64,000 nucleotides of DNA, from the sequence record NC_054910.1; one strand, 5' to 3'. The translations under genes and the position numbers were made by a program. The stretch is from Escherichia phage EcNP1. Positions 3,129-7,356 of the stretch are shown in pieces. The notes beneath the pieces were generated by a model. The model was not told where the DNA came from. It made no database searches and saw only the letters and a program-made list of their open reading frames with translations. Every line of letters starts with the position of its first letter. Positions within the stretch are counted from its first letter, which is position 1.

Positions 3129-3341
3129 TCATTTTTGTCCTGTATTTACTTTATGCCGATGCACGGCCTTAACTTTATCAAGGTATTTTTCAAAATTTCG
3201 CAATCTAGTATAGTCTGCCGGAGATTGGTTGAGTGATACTTCTCGACGCAAAGCTGAAATGATATTTCCAACTTCCCTACGAATTTCATCTAATTGAAGA
3301 ACAGTAAGATTGCGAAGTTGCTTTTCAGTTAATTGTAGCAT
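3129..3341 (-). CDS. hypothetical protein (T4 rI.1 position)
   Basis: 70-aa ORF between rI and tk. Confidence 0.55.
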
Positions 3342-3366
3342 ATATACCCCTTTAGTTAGATAAACC

Positions 3367-3374
3367 TATTTATA
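3367..3374 (-). promoter_or_regulatory. T4-type late promoter TATAAATA
   Basis: TATAAATA on minus strand about 26 nt upstream of the 3341 start. Confidence 0.5.
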
Positions 3375-3383
3375 ACTTTTGCA

Positions 3384-3965
3384 CTAACCGAGCTTTTTAG
3401 TTAATTCATTCCAATGTTTTCTGCACAAAGAAACATAAATTTCATCACCAATACAGATTTGATTACCTTCTTTAACTGGTGTTCCATCTTCCATTAATCG
3501 AGCCGTCATAATCGCTTTTTTACCGCAATGACAAACTGCCTTTAGTTCAATAAGTTTATCTGCAATCGCCAAAAGTTCTTTAGAACCTTCAAATAATTTT
3601 CCGGCGAAATCAGTCCTTAGACCATAAGCCATAACAGGAACATTATATGTATCAACAATTCGACTTAATTGATGCACCTGTTCAGTTTTTAAAAACTGGG
3701 CTTCATCTACAAATACACAATGAATATCTTTTTGTGCTTCAGCCCATTTATAGAACTCAAAAATATCCATATCATCCGTAATAATATTCGCTTCCTGCTT
3801 AATTCCAATACGAGAAACGACTTCACAGACAGAATCGCGAGTATCAATAGCAGGCTTAAGAACTAATACACCCATTCCGCGTTCTTTATAATTATGCGCA
3901 GCAGTCAAAAGAGAAGCAGATTTTCCAGCATTCATTGCTGCATAAGTAAAAATTAAACTCGCCAT
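3384..3965 (-). CDS. tk: thymidine kinase
   Basis: 193 aa; P-loop AMNAGKS; matches T4 Tk as recalled. Confidence 0.95.
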   Translation of the reverse strand: MASLIFTYAAMNAGKSASLLTAAHNYKERGMGVLVLKPAIDTRDSVCEVVSRIGIKQEANIITDDMDIFEFYKWAEAQKDIHCVFVDEAQFLKTEQVHQLSRIVDTYNVPVMAYGLRTDFAGKLFEGSKELLAIADKLIELKAVCHCGKKAIMTARLMEDGTPVKEGNQICIGDEIYVSLCRKHWNELTKKLG

Positions 3966-3974
3966 ATCACCTTC

Positions 3975-4160
3975 TTAAAGCGTATTCACATAAGCTATTA
4001 ATTCGTTTTCTTTCTTATCAAACCGATCAGCAAATTCTTCCTGCTGTTCGGGAGATAGCGGGCCGTATTCATCATAAAAGGTGTTTGCTTCTGCATGTTC
4101 ATCTAGAAGTTCATGGATAAGCTCAAACAATTTATCTTTTTGTTCTTTACTCAGACTCAT
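3975..4160 (-). CDS. small acidic protein
   Basis: 61-aa ORF rich in D/E. Confidence 0.5.
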   Translation of the reverse strand: MSLSKEQKDKLFELIHELLDEHAEANTFYDEYGPLSPEQQEEFADRFDKKENELIAYVNTL

Positions 4161-4330
4161 ATATTAATTTCCAGGAGTTTTAAAATAATTCGCTTTTGCT
4201 TAAATATTTCCGTAGTTAAATGGTCAGTATCTTTTTGACCGATTCCAACGGCAAAACCTTTATTAACAGCGAGTTCAATTAAATTATCAAGCTCACGTAA
4301 CACTTCATATTGTAACTCAAAATTATTCAT
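4157..4330 (-). CDS. small ORF (57 aa)
   Basis: ATGA and ATATGA start/stop overlaps with both neighbours; hand-translated; below track cutoff. Confidence 0.35.
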   Translation of the reverse strand: MNNFELQYEVLRELDNLIELAVNKGFAVGIGQKDTDHLTTEIFKQKRIILKLLEINI

Positions 4331-4554
4331 TTTGGTTTACCTTCTTTAACGAAATCAGGATAAGGATAAAATCCTGAATAAAATCCTTCACCTTTATGAT
4401 TGATGCATCCTTTATTAGAACAATAGCACCAATAGTCAAAATCACAGGCCATTTCATCATTACATAAAGCAAAAACAACAGGCCATTTACACTTTTCACA
4501 ATGGGCATTTTTAAGAATACTAGTTTGGCTCATAACCATGTAACCTTTAAGCAA
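4327..4554 (-). CDS. cysteine-rich small protein (putative zinc-binding)
   Basis: 8 Cys in 75 aa including CEKC and CYC pairs. Confidence 0.5.
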   Translation of the reverse strand: MLKGYMVMSQTSILKNAHCEKCKWPVVFALCNDEMACDFDYWCYCSNKGCINHKGEGFYSGFYPYPDFVKEGKPK

Positions 4555-4742
4555 TATTCTTCTACATGTTGTTTACGACCTTTCCTATCAATAAAGGTAT
4601 ATTCAACGAATGTTCCAATATAGTCTTTATCTACATCATGAGGACTATTAATTGGGCATTTAGTACGGCAAATGCGTTCCCATTGACGAATAATTTCTGC
4701 TTTGTTTTTAGGATCAAACGGATGCGGGTAATGTACTTTCAT
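4530..4742 (-). CDS. hypothetical protein
   Basis: 70-aa ORF. Confidence 0.45.
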   Translation of the reverse strand: MKVHYPHPFDPKNKAEIIRQWERICRTKCPINSPHDVDKDYIGTFVEYTFIDRKGRKQHVEEYCLKVTWL

Positions 4743-5193
4743 AATCCACCACTATCAAATCAATATCAGGAGTAAACATGTCGATTAATTTAGAAACCTT
4801 ATCCCAATCACCGCCAGCAATACCACAACCTATGCGTGGAATGTAAATTACTGGTTTAAACAAAAGGGTTTCTGCCTGTAGATTTAATTCTATCATGCAG
4901 TTTACTAAAGCACCATAATCAAGATTAGGACCCGGTTCGTATTGCGTATACAGATTATAGCATATACCAAATCCTGTAGGATTATGTTTAAAAACAATAG
5001 ACATATCGCCTAATTTATCACGAGAACCATATTCAGTAGTGGTTTTATCTATTTCTAAAATTTTAGGATAAGCCCTTGCTAATTGACCCGCTACACCTGA
5101 ACCCATAGTATGAAAACAGTTGCACCCGTGCGCAATAATATTACCTTGAAGAAATAGGGCGACAATATCGCCCTTGATATATTTTACAATCAT
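4714..5193 (-). CDS. macrodomain protein, TARG1/OARD1-like ADP-ribosyl hydrolase
   Basis: 159 aa; KGDIV...AHGCNCFHTMGSGVAGQ and PRIGCGIAGGDW resemble TARG1 motifs KGDLF...AHCISEDCRMGAGIA and PRIGCGLDRLQW. Confidence 0.7.
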   Translation of the reverse strand: MIVKYIKGDIVALFLQGNIIAHGCNCFHTMGSGVAGQLARAYPKILEIDKTTTEYGSRDKLGDMSIVFKHNPTGFGICYNLYTQYEPGPNLDYGALVNCMIELNLQAETLLFKPVIYIPRIGCGIAGGDWDKVSKLIDMFTPDIDLIVVDYESTLPASV

Positions 5194-5531
5194 CTAGTAC
5201 TCAATCCTCGATTATAAGAATCTACCAAACGGTCAACCATTGAATGACAAGCGGCTTTATCTTTCTCCTCCGCAACTGAACATTCTAAGGTATTCCACTT
5301 TTTAGCATATCGTTTTAATAAAGTATCGTTCTTGTATCTGCTTGATTTATCTCTTTCTCCGTCTTTATATGCATATATTAATTTCTGCGCAAATTCAGCT
5401 TGGCATGCTTTATTTTTCCCACAATAATCCGCGGCAGTACGGTTTACATACTCTCTAATTTCAGTGTATGATGTATTTGCTAACGCAGAAAATGAAATTA
5501 ATCCTACACATAAAACCAAAATTTTAGTCAT
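5190..5531 (-). CDS. secreted/periplasmic small protein (T4 vs position)
   Basis: 113 aa with N-terminal signal peptide MTKILVLCVGLISFSALA; several Cys. Confidence 0.5.
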   Translation of the reverse strand: MTKILVLCVGLISFSALANTSYTEIREYVNRTAADYCGKNKACQAEFAQKLIYAYKDGERDKSSRYKNDTLLKRYAKKWNTLECSVAEEKDKAACHSMVDRLVDSYNRGLSTR

Positions 5532-6069
5532 TTACTATTTCCAACAGTTTATTATTTTTAAGGTAGTTAGCCTTTTCTAGGACTTCAGAAGCATATTTAG
5601 AACCTGCTTTAACATTCCATCCCGAATTATAAGAGGATATTGCCTTTCTTATATCGCCCTTATGTATATTTAACCAATAAGAAAGTTCAATGTACGCCCA
5701 GGAAGCTGAATTGGACCGTTTATTCAACATTCTTTTTATTTCAGCATCGGTCATATTATAACCAAGTTCCTTAACTCTTGCTCGCATGGTCGGCAAATAA
5801 TTTTGGAACATTCCATAGGCATGATGCTTTGGTTTAGATTTTAAATTAACTCCGGCAGAGCTTTCTTGCCATAAAATAGCAGCCATTATATGACCTAATC
5901 CGCTCTTGTGGATATTTTTATGTGTTTTATATTTTCCATCCTTGGAAAATTGTTCCCCGAATTGATACGCGTAACGCATGTTATCGAGTTGGACATTACT
6001 GAAAGTATGCTCGGAGCTATGTGCCATCATAGAAATGGCCAATAGACCAGCGAGTAGTGCTTTTCTCAT
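5524..6069 (-). CDS. signal-peptide lytic transglycosylase (SLT-domain) protein
   Basis: 181 aa; signal peptide; SLT-like catalytic block ILWQESS ... YGMFQ. Confidence 0.65.
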   Translation of the reverse strand: MRKALLAGLLAISMMAHSSEHTFSNVQLDNMRYAYQFGEQFSKDGKYKTHKNIHKSGLGHIMAAILWQESSAGVNLKSKPKHHAYGMFQNYLPTMRARVKELGYNMTDAEIKRMLNKRSNSASWAYIELSYWLNIHKGDIRKAISSYNSGWNVKAGSKYASEVLEKANYLKNNKLLEIVND

Positions 6070-6076
6070 GCTTACC

Positions 6077-6538
6077 TCATTGAGTTTTAATTACTGCTTT
6101 AGAAGCCTTTCCCGGTAAACGACGACTATTGATAATTGCCATCCTGCACTGAAGTGACGGGTCTTTGAACTTCGCATTAGGTTTACAAACTGTAAATCCA
6201 AGCCAAAGATTTCCATCTGTGATTTCTAAACGCCCAGGACGATATTCAACCCCATCAATAAAATCCTCATCAATGTCAGGCCGCGGAGGCATACTCAGGA
6301 ATTCATTAACTTCTAAAACATGGTCTTTTATTTTGTGGAATAATTCAAAAACATATGTCTCATCAATCTCCCGCTGAATTGCACGATCAAGAAGATGCTG
6401 AGAATATTTTAGATGAAACGATGAGACTCCTGCTGCTTTTGATGCCTCACGAATCTCATTGTTAATTTGACGAAACTCCGACTCAAAATGACGACGGAGT
6501 TTATTTCGACGGATAAAAACTTCTGTGTTGATAGTCAT
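6077..6538 (-). CDS. regB: RegB site-specific endoribonuclease
   Basis: 153 aa, length and sequence match T4 RegB as recalled. Confidence 0.85.
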   Translation of the reverse strand: MTINTEVFIRRNKLRRHFESEFRQINNEIREASKAAGVSSFHLKYSQHLLDRAIQREIDETYVFELFHKIKDHVLEVNEFLSMPPRPDIDEDFIDGVEYRPGRLEITDGNLWLGFTVCKPNAKFKDPSLQCRMAIINSRRLPGKASKAVIKTQ

Positions 6539-6544
6539 GTTATT

Positions 6545-6595
6545 CTCCTCTTAACTGATAGAAAAATTATACCACAGTCAAGAGGAAAAGTAAAC
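6545..6595 (-). promoter_or_regulatory. early sigma70-type promoter with -10 inside a hairpin
   Basis: minus strand GTTTAC-N18-TATAAT; inverted repeat TCCTCTT/AAGAGGA flanks the -10 and supplies the regB SD. Confidence 0.5.
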
Positions 6596-6597
6596 AG

Positions 6598-6876
6598 TTA
6601 TTCTTTAAATCTAATCAATTTATTCATAGACTTTGAAACTTCTGCACGAACCTCATGTAAATTTTTGAGTTGCTCAAGACGCTGCGCATAGTAAGCAATT
6701 TCATCTTCTTCGAGACAGTCCTGTGAATCTTCTTTAAGATAACGCGCATAGTCCTGGAAAGCGTTACGGACTACTTCCTGGAAGTCATCAAGACTTTGAA
6801 TTTTCTTAGGAGCAACAGATACACGACGAGGGGCAGTATAATACTCATAACCAAACCCTGCGCTTAATTGAGCCAT
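6598..6876 (-). CDS. hypothetical protein
   Basis: ORF 6598..6918 in track; start placed at internal ATG giving TAATG overlap with upstream gene. Confidence 0.5.
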
Positions 6877-7142
6877 TAATATTTTTCCTCTGGTTGGAAC
6901 ACTGCACGACAAGCCCACATACTGGCTTCTTTGAGTTTCGTTTTAGCAATAGTTAACTGATCGAGACTTTCAGCATAATTCTTCGCGAATTCACAGTCTT
7001 CACAATTATCTAGCGCTTCCCAGAATTCATCATATAAAGCATCAAAGATAAGTCCTAAACGAACTTCAGCATCTTTGATAGCATTCACTTTACTGATTTT
7101 ATCGTCAGTATGTGGCTTATAACCTTTAATGTCTTCAATCAT
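6876..7142 (-). CDS. hypothetical small protein (positional equivalent of T4 vs.4)
   Basis: 88-aa ORF; fourth gene upstream of regB; sequence identity to the T4 protein not verifiable from memory. Confidence 0.45.
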
Positions 7143-7356
7143 ATTTTACTTCCTCACCTGTTCCCAAATCATATTCAACTAAACGAATAGGTTCATGAAT
7201 GCCATATCCTTGAACAGAAATTTCTGTCGTAGGATAAATTCCATTAATATCACCCATGTTCCACGCTTCATTAAATTGCTGTTCGCCTGAATTACTAAAC
7301 CACTCGGCGAAAGCATTTAGCACATCTTCAGAACCTTCAATAATTATCTTTGCCAT
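7135..7356 (-). CDS. hypothetical small protein
   Basis: 73-aa ORF. Confidence 0.5.
   Translation of the reverse strand: MAKIIIEGSEDVLNAFAEWFSNSGEQQFNEAWNMGDINGIYPTTEISVQGYGIHEPIRLVEYDLGTGEEVKYD

What the first reader, a model, noticed from the sequence alone, without database searches (positions are those of the whole stretch)
4714..5193. TARG1/OARD1-like macrodomain in the tk-regB accessory string
The 159-aa protein carries both signature blocks of the TARG1-type macrodomain (KGDIV...AHGCNCFHTMGSGVAGQ; PRIGCGIAGGDW). Enzymes of this family remove ADP-ribose from proteins and can reverse DarT-type ADP-ribosylation of DNA. In a phage it could counter ADP-ribosylating host defences or tune the phage's own Alt/Mod ADP-ribosyltransferases. 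I cannot tell from memory whether the T4 gene at this position is already annotated this way.
Basis: partly seen in the sequence, partly recalled or inferred. Interest (0 to 1): 0.6.

Follow-up and report, generated by a model that had tools for sequence, protein, structure and literature searches.

The report
Phage T4 tk.4 (AdfM) macrodomain allele
This is a diverged copy of the T4 gene tk.4, a small ADP-ribose-removing (macrodomain) enzyme that a 2025 preprint showed T4 needs to grow on bacteria carrying the DarTG2 defence, so the finding is real but already known.

Summary

The window matches Tequatrovirus phage vB_EcoM_Nami (3300-6600 is 100% identical). The gene sits between tk.3 and vs, so it is the ortholog of T4 tk.4. 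RefSeq already notes an A1pp (macro) motif in T4 tk.4, and a 2006 paper reported it. A November 2025 preprint found tk.4 to be the only T4 gene required on a DarTG2 host and renamed it adfM.

Two refinements:
- Both TARG1 catalytic residues are replaced (K84 by Q84, D125 by A126), and so is DarG Lys80. Q84, N25 and H22 are invariant in 118 homologs and match Gln85, Asn27 and His24 of SCO6735, a lysine-less macrodomain shown to cleave DarT-made thymidine-ADP-ribose.
- This allele is only 58% identical to T4 Tk.4, while the flanking proteins are 93-99% identical. It is a swapped cassette.

Biochemical activity of this allele is inferred, not shown.

The parts
4714..5193 (-). tk.4 / adfM ortholog: a 159-aa stand-alone macrodomain protein
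5083..5133 (-). Residues 21-37, AHGCNCFHTMGSGVAGQ: active-site His22 and Asn25 plus the first Gly-rich ADP-ribose-binding loop
   Evidence: Translation. H22 and N25 align with SCO6735 His24 and Asn27, and N25 also aligns with the DarG 'TVN' Asn. H22, G23, N25, C26 and G33 are present in 118 of 118 homologs. SCO6735 N27S is nearly inactive.
4942..4956 (-). Residues 80-84, NLYTQ: Gln84 occupies the position of the TARG1 Lys84 / DarG Lys80 catalytic lysine
   Evidence: hhalign (99.4% probability) and MAFFT place Q84 on TARG1 K84, DarG K80 and SCO6735 Q85. Q84 is present in 118 of 118 homologs. SCO6735 Q85A is dead on DNA and protein substrates.
4804..4839 (-). Residues 119-130, PRIGCGIAGGDW: second (diphosphate-binding) loop. 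Ala126 sits where TARG1 has catalytic Asp125
   Evidence: Translation. The loop is near-identical to SCO6735 PRIGCGLAGGTW and BT1257 PRIGCGLAGGKW. Position 126 is A in 107 and G in 11 of 118 homologs, never D.
5190..5193 (-). ATGA overlap of the vs stop codon with the tk.4 start codon (probable translational coupling within the regB-vs.1-vs-tk.4 gene string)
   Evidence: Sequence. ORF ends. No promoter-like excess was found in the region (12 sites found against 15.1 expected).
4714..5100 (-). Diverged cassette relative to T4: the body and 3' end of tk.4, only 47-66% DNA identity while the flanks are 94-100%
   Evidence: Sliding identity to T4. Protein identity by segment: residues 1-47 85%, 48-118 51%, 119-155 38%. 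Flanking proteins are 93-99% identical to T4.

Best explanation
The ORF is the ortholog of T4 tk.4 (adfM). It is an orphan, stand-alone macrodomain of the TARG1-like (ALC1-like) class. It is expressed with the neighbouring regB-vs.1-vs genes. Its most likely role is to protect replicating phage DNA from the host DarTG2 toxin-antitoxin defence, by hydrolysing the ADP-ribose that DarT2 attaches to thymidine in single-stranded DNA. Its active site is not the TARG1 Lys/Asp dyad or the DarG lysine. It is the lysine-less set seen in Streptomyces SCO6735 and Bacteroides BT1257 (His22, Asn25, Gln84, Gly122/Gly124). In SCO6735 the Gln, held in place by the Asn, positions the distal ribose and a water molecule starts cleavage. 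What is shown here: the macrodomain fold, the class, the synteny, and the conservation of the SCO6735-type residues. What is shown by others: the T4 ortholog is required on DarTG2 hosts, and SCO6735 cleaves dT-ADP-ribose. What is inferred: that this 58%-identical allele has the same activity and phenotype.
Against: No biochemistry exists for any Tk.4-type protein; the preprint itself only says enzymatic removal 'seems likely'. This allele is 42% different from the tested T4 protein, and only 38-51% identical beyond residue 47. The SCO6735 DNA-positioning lysines Lys34 and Lys89 are not conserved; the window has S32, and position 89 is mostly Pro. In single-sequence searches the closest hits include Poa1p, a small-molecule ADP-ribose-1''-phosphate phosphatase. 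A bacterial homolog (Pelagimonas) has no darT neighbour.
Confidence: 0.72

Rival explanations
1. It processes small ADP-ribose metabolites. It would be a Poa1p-like ADP-ribose-1''-phosphate phosphatase (the historical 'A1pp phosphatase' annotation), or a degrader of low-molecular-weight ADP-ribose-derived immune signals, rather than acting on DNA.
Against: The T4 ortholog's only conditional phenotype is on DarTG2, a DNA-modifying system. Poa1p Phe152 corresponds to Ala126 here. From my own knowledge, T4 RNA repair (Pnkp/Rnl1) is not known to generate ADP-ribose-1''-phosphate. The two activities are not mutually exclusive.
Confidence: 0.1
2. It neutralises DarT2 without catalysis, by binding the toxin or masking ADP-ribosylated DNA ('interaction-inhibition').
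For: Catalytically dead SCO6735 Q85A, DarG K80A and TARG1 K84A all inhibit DarT in vitro, and SCO6735 does so most strongly (PMC9411070). Strong divergence in residues 48-155, with a conserved core, would fit co-evolution with a protein partner.
Against: The protein lacks the C-terminal DarT-binding domain of DarG: it is 159 aa and covers only positions 2-142 of the 338-position NCBIfam DarG model. Strict invariance of H22, N25 and Q84 across 118 homologs argues for catalysis.
Confidence: 0.08
3. It erases the phage's own ADP-ribosylation or RNAylation marks, made by Alt, ModA and ModB, on host proteins.
For: T4-like phages encode three ADP-ribosyltransferases (PMC8120803). TARG1-like enzymes also act on protein-linked ADP-ribose.
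Against: Alt and Mod modify arginine. TARG1-type enzymes are described as acting on acidic residues and ARH1 on arginine (PMC8883491). Arginine-specific macrodomains exist (MavL, in the reference list), so the class argument is not absolute. No tk.4 phenotype other than the one on DarTG2 turned up in my text searches of the preprint.
Confidence: 0.05
4. It is an RNase III regulator like E. coli YmdB, as the GenBank record of the identical phage labels it.
For: The Nami record's product name is 'RNase III inhibitor'. JGI labels homologs 'O-acetyl-ADP-ribose deacetylase (regulator of RNase III)'.
Against: The label is transferred by name. YmdB (5cb3) is a MacroD-type protein and only a distant Foldseek hit at rank 32. 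The NCBIfam O-acetyl-ADP-ribose deacetylase model scores 16.7 bits against a cutoff of 291. The same mislabel sits on the Mtb DarG macrodomain entry 5m3i.
Confidence: 0.02

Closest known systems
T4 Tk.4 = AdfM (anti-DarT factor Macrodomain), bioRxiv 10.1101/2025.11.20.689424
   Same: Same locus (between tk.3 and vs), same length class, and 58% identity at E=1e-70. Residues 1-47 are 85% identical. Both have the same HGCNC...NLYTQ motifs.
   Different: Identity beyond residue 47 is only 38-51%. The loop is PRIGCGIAGGDW here and PRIGAGIGKGNW in T4. This protein has four extra C-terminal residues and a 29-nt overlap with tk.3. The DarTG2 phenotype has been tested only for the T4 allele.
Streptomyces coelicolor SCO6735 (PDB 5e3b) and Bacteroides BT1257 (2afc/2fg1): lysine-less TARG1-like macrodomains
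   Different: Only 25-26% identity. The mobile loop after the Gln is shorter. SCO6735 Lys34 and Lys89 are not conserved. These are cellular, SOS-linked proteins, not phage genes.
DarG antitoxin macrodomain (Thermus aquaticus 5m31, M. tuberculosis 5m3i)
   Different: The catalytic Lys80 (PTK motif) is Gln here. There is no C-terminal DarT-binding domain and no adjacent darT. The score is 27.8 bits against a cutoff of 250.
Human TARG1 / OARD1 (4j5r)
   Same: Best Foldseek match (E=4.3e-10, TM 0.73/0.82). Shared KGD...AH...MGxG and PRIGCG...W blocks. TARG1 also reverses thymidine-linked ADPr.
   Different: Both residues of the Lys84/Asp125 catalytic dyad are replaced, by Q84 and A126. TARG1 has Ser where this protein has Asn25.
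PhiKZ gp104, also named AdfM (Cell Rep 2026, PMC13309987)
   Same: A phage-encoded orphan macrodomain that counters DarTG2. Removal of DarT2 ADP-ribose from DNA was shown in vitro.
   Different: It is a different lineage: a DarG-type protein with the FPTK catalytic lysine, whose PDB hits are DarG only (9.4e-25), and only about 21% identical to the window protein. It is imported into the phage nucleus.
Yeast Poa1p (6lfq), ADP-ribose-1''-phosphate phosphatase
   Different: Single-sequence similarity fades after about residue 80. Phe152 corresponds to Ala126. Its substrate is a small molecule in tRNA splicing.

Membership tests
Macro domain superfamily (Pfam PF01661) | Profile match above the curated gathering score | tested here: met
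   33.1 bits against 22, E=5.8e-8, covering positions 2-117 of the 118-position model.
Macro domain superfamily (Pfam PF01661) | Alpha/beta macro fold | tested here: met
TARG1-like / ALC1-like macrodomain class | Closest structural and profile neighbours are TARG1, DarG, SCO6735/BT1257, Poa1p and ALC1, rather than MacroD, PARG or macroH2A types | tested here: met
TARG1 (OARD1) proper | Catalytic Lys84 | tested here: not met
   It aligns with Gln84. No Lys at this position in 118 homologs.
TARG1 (OARD1) proper | Catalytic Asp125 | tested here: not met
   It aligns with Ala126. The position is A or G, never D, in 118 homologs.
DarG antitoxin (NCBIfam NF048014 equivalog) | Full-length match above cutoff, including the C-terminal DarT-binding domain | tested here: not met
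   27.8 bits against a cutoff of 250. Only model positions 2-142 of 338 are matched, and the protein is 159 aa.
DarG antitoxin (NCBIfam NF048014 equivalog) | Catalytic Lys80 in the FPTK motif | tested here: not met
   NLYTQ here against NFPTK in DarG.
DarG antitoxin (NCBIfam NF048014 equivalog) | Operon partner darT | tested here: not met
   The immediate neighbours are vs and tk.3. The gene is an orphan in a phage genome.
SCO6735/BT1257-type (Gln-type) dT-ADPr hydrolases | Gln at the catalytic-lysine position (SCO6735 Gln85) | tested here: met
   Q84 aligns with Q85 and is present in 118 of 118 homologs.
SCO6735/BT1257-type (Gln-type) dT-ADPr hydrolases | Asn27 and His24 equivalents, plus Gly126/Gly128 in the phosphate-binding loop | tested here: met
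   N25, H22, G122 and G124 align with these residues. N25 and H22 are invariant and G122/G124 are present in 117 of 118 homologs, the exception being an alignment gap.
SCO6735/BT1257-type (Gln-type) dT-ADPr hydrolases | DNA-positioning Lys34 and Lys89 | tested here: not met
   S32 replaces Lys34, and there is no Lys in the shortened loop after Q84. PhiKZ AdfM also lacks the Lys34 equivalent yet cleaves DNA-ADPr.
SCO6735/BT1257-type (Gln-type) dT-ADPr hydrolases | Hydrolysis of thymidine-linked ADP-ribose on ssDNA | not testable with these tools
   This needs an in vitro assay with DarT2-modified oligonucleotide.
AdfM of T4 (tk.4) | Syntenic ortholog between tk.3 and vs | tested here: met
   Gene order is tk ... 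tk.3 - tk.4 - vs - vs.1 - regB, with flanking proteins 93-99% identical to T4. 58% identity, E=1e-70.
AdfM of T4 (tk.4) | Required for plating on DarTG2-expressing E. coli | not testable with these tools
   Shown only for the T4 allele.
Poa1p-type ADP-ribose-1''-phosphate phosphatase | Residues probed in the Poa1p structures (His23, Ser30, Phe152) | tested here: inconclusive
   His23 aligns with H22 (conserved), Ser30 with T29 (variable in the family), and Phe152 with A126 (not conserved).

The most novel reading that the evidence does not exclude
The Nami-type tk.4 allele is a recombinant cassette. It keeps the invariant His/Asn/Gln catalytic core, but about half of residues 48-155 differ from the T4 allele (38-51% identity by segment). 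It could be a specificity variant produced by an arms race. It might neutralise a different set of DarT2 toxins, through the interaction-inhibition seen for SCO6735, or it might act on another ADP-ribosylated nucleic-acid substrate such as uracil-ADPr RNA. If so, T4-type AdfM would be a lysine-independent DNA ADP-ribosylglycohydrolase, mechanistically distinct from DarG and from the PhiKZ protein that shares its name.
Probability: 0.2. Interest if true: 0.5.

Novelty: already known. Interest (0 to 1): 0.22.

Why it matters
The macrodomain in T4 tk.4 has been annotated since at least 2006. A 2025 preprint showed genetically that tk.4 is T4's anti-DarTG2 factor, AdfM.

Two small points remain of value:
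- The T4-type AdfM family lacks the catalytic lysine of DarG and TARG1 and carries the SCO6735-type Gln/Asn/His site instead. Its assumed hydrolase mechanism has not been tested and probably differs from that of the bacterial antitoxin. It also differs from PhiKZ gp104, which was independently given the same name.
- Within one phage genus, two tk.4 alleles only 58% identical sit between near-identical flanks. That pattern is expected of a counter-defence gene under diversifying exchange. It also offers a natural allele pair for testing DarT2 specificity.

Tried and rejected
I reran it with a database homolog in its place.
- I tried to display the window-versus-SCO6735 alignment by querying the PDB with fragments of the protein. 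That returned only the C-terminal loop. Querying with BT1257 solved it: the output printed most of the SCO6735 sequence, which I then aligned directly.
- I checked the CmdTAC paper for a link to a T4 macrodomain and found none.
- I looked at the genomic context of two homologs to see whether Tk.4-type macrodomains sit next to darT. The Pelagimonas copy is in housekeeping surroundings, and the other lies in a phage-like metagenomic contig. Neither was informative.
- The promoter scan of 3300-7200 found no more sites than shuffled sequence (12 against 15.1). It gave 6 terminator-like hairpins against 2.1 expected, and none of them delimits the gene.
- I rejected the GenBank label 'RNase III inhibitor' as a name transferred from MacroD-type YmdB.
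- I considered the Alt/Mod-eraser idea and ranked it low. There is no supporting evidence, and the linkage chemistry differs.

Full report
**Observation**

The ORF lies at 4714..5193 on the minus strand, runs ATG to TGA, and encodes 159 aa. Window 3300-6600 is 100% identical to Escherichia phage vB_EcoM_Nami (Tequatrovirus), and 443 other phage records are 95-99% identical. The Nami record annotates the same CDS.

**Is it a macrodomain?**

Yes.
- Pfam Macro PF01661 scores 33.1 bits against a gathering score of 22, E=5.8e-8.
- PHROG 335 scores E=1.6e-71.
- An AlphaFold2 model built on a 48-sequence alignment has mean pLDDT 94.8 and pTM 0.89.
- Foldseek against the PDB ranks TARG1 first (4j5r, E=4.3e-10, TM 0.73/0.82), followed by Poa1p, BT1257 and DarG.

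**Which gene is it?**

The gene order is tk, small ORFs, tk.3, this ORF, vs, vs.1, regB. The flanking proteins are 93-99% identical to those of T4 (tk 99.0%, Tk.3 92.9%, Vs 95.7%, Vs.1 99.4%, RegB 99.3%). The ORF occupies the position of T4 tk.4.

T4 RefSeq already describes tk.4 as 'phosphatase; Tk.4; contains A1pp phosphatase motif'. Nolan et al. 2006 reported A1pp (macro) matches for tk.4 orthologs (PMC1524935). Other GenBank records of this same allele call it 'Macro domain-containing protein' or 'phosphatase'.

**Published function**

The HIDEN-SEQ preprint (bioRxiv 10.1101/2025.11.20.689424, 20 Nov 2025) screened a T4 transposon library on a host expressing DarTG2.
- tk.4 was the single significant hit.
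- A clean knockout sensitised T4 to DarTG2.
- The authors renamed the gene adfM.
- They stated that enzymatic removal of ADP-ribose from DNA 'seems likely'. They reported no biochemistry.

Earlier work had shown that T4 lacking adfA and adfN remains DarTG2-resistant, which predicted such a factor (PMC11825919). Independently, PhiKZ gp104, another phage macrodomain, was also named AdfM and was shown in vitro to remove DarT2-made ADP-ribose from DNA (PMC13309987).

**Refinement 1: the catalytic residues**

I verified my recalled TARG1 sequence against the PDB. I recovered the DarG and SCO6735 sequences from HMMER printouts.

A profile-profile alignment of the Tk.4 family against TARG1, DarG and PhiKZ gp104 (99.4% probability) and an eight-sequence MAFFT alignment agree on these equivalences:
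- Window NLYTQ84 aligns with TARG1 LITK84, DarG FPTK80 and SCO6735 MIGQ85.
- TARG1 Asp125 aligns with window Ala126.
- Window His22 and Asn25 align with SCO6735 His24 and Asn27.

It does not imply inactivity. SCO6735 also lacks both residues and still cleaves thymidine-linked ADP-ribose made by DarT. Its Q85A mutant is dead and its N27S mutant is nearly dead. A water-initiated mechanism, with the Gln positioning the substrate, has been proposed for it (PMC9411070).

In 118 homologs of 39-97% identity, H22, N25 and Q84 are present in all 118. Position 126 is Ala or Gly and never Asp. T4 Tk.4 has the same residues.

The T4-type AdfM family is therefore a Gln-type, SCO6735/BT1257-like enzyme. PhiKZ gp104 is a Lys-type, DarG-like enzyme whose PDB sequence hits are DarG only. 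The two proteins named 'AdfM' are not orthologs.

The protein is not a DarG equivalog. NCBIfam gives 27.8 bits against a cutoff of 250, the match covers the macrodomain part only, there is no C-terminal domain, and there is no darT neighbour.

Points that weaken the analogy:
- SCO6735's DNA-positioning Lys34 and Lys89 are not conserved here. However, PhiKZ gp104 also lacks the Lys34 equivalent.
- The loop after the Gln is shorter than in SCO6735.

**Refinement 2: a swapped allele**

The protein is only 58% identical to T4 Tk.4. By segment, residues 1-47 are 85% identical, 48-118 are 51%, and 119-155 are 38%.

At the DNA level, identity to T4 is 94-100% in tk.3 and in vs-regB, but 47-66% across 4714-5100. 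It rises again inside the 5' part of the gene. This points to a cassette exchange with one breakpoint inside tk.4.

About 310 phage records carry this allele at 90% identity or more. T2 and many others carry the 58% type. Whether the two alleles differ in DarT2 specificity is unknown. Catalytically dead SCO6735, DarG and TARG1 all inhibit DarT by interaction, which offers one route by which surface divergence could matter.

**Context**

The tk.4 start codon overlaps the vs stop codon (ATGA at 5190-5193). The 3' end of tk.4 overlaps the tk.3 start by 29 nt. Promoter-like sites are no more frequent than in shuffled sequence. One good site lies upstream of regB. This fits co-transcription with the regB-vs.1-vs string.

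**Verdict**

The feature is already known. The most likely function is hydrolytic reversal of DarT2 thymidine ADP-ribosylation on phage DNA, through a lysine-independent active site. That function is inferred for this allele from orthology and residue conservation (confidence about 0.7). The rival explanations are small-molecule ADP-ribose processing, non-catalytic DarT2 inhibition, erasure of Alt/Mod marks, and RNase III regulation. All rank lower, for the reasons given in their entries.

Noticed in passing
window 4714-5150 compared with T4 (L002 3923-4390): tk.4 is a locally diverged cassette. DNA identity to T4 is 47-66% across the gene body, while tk.3 and vs-regB are 94-100% identical. 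One breakpoint lies inside the gene near 5100-5150. Two alleles about 58% identical coexist within Tequatrovirus.
   Followed up: partly
window 3966-4533: The tk.1-tk.2 segment differs from T4. No tk.1 homolog was found in this stretch. The 61-aa ORF at 3975-4160 is only 54% identical to Tk.2. Two ORFs have no counterpart among the T4 tk-regB proteins: 4157-4330 (57 aa, PHROG 3452) and 4327-4533 (68 aa, Cys-rich, PHROG 2306, possibly a zinc-binding protein).
   Followed up: partly
L001 (MZ502380 phage Nami annotation), same as window 3300-6600: Several product names in the GenBank record look like errors carried over by name. tk.4 is called 'RNase III inhibitor'. The Vs modifier is called 'valyl-tRNA synthetase'. 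The SLT-like vs.1 is called 'endoribonuclease'. A mobD.5-like ORF is called 'molybdopterin-guanine dinucleotide biosynthesis protein MobD'.
   Followed up: no
window 5156-5174 (both strands): A G+C-rich hairpin, AGGGCGATATTGTCGCCCT, lies inside the first 40 nt of the tk.4 coding sequence and was flagged as terminator-like on both strands. It sits in the part of the gene that is 88-97% identical to T4.
   Followed up: no
literature: T4 Tk.4 (bioRxiv 2025.11.20.689424) and PhiKZ gp104 (PMC13309987): Two non-orthologous phage macrodomain lineages were independently given the name AdfM. The T4 type has Gln at the catalytic position and is SCO6735/BT1257-like. The PhiKZ type has the DarG FPTK lysine.
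   Followed up: yes
window 5047-5049 (codon of Asp49): Asp49 is invariant in all 118 Tk.4-family homologs. In the MAFFT alignment it is not conserved in SCO6735, BT1257, TARG1 or DarG. It is a family-specific residue of unknown role.
   Followed up: no
window 5190-5531 (vs): The HIDEN-SEQ preprint reports that the adjacent gene vs, which is translationally coupled to tk.4, was the most strongly depleted T4 gene in minimal medium.
   Followed up: no
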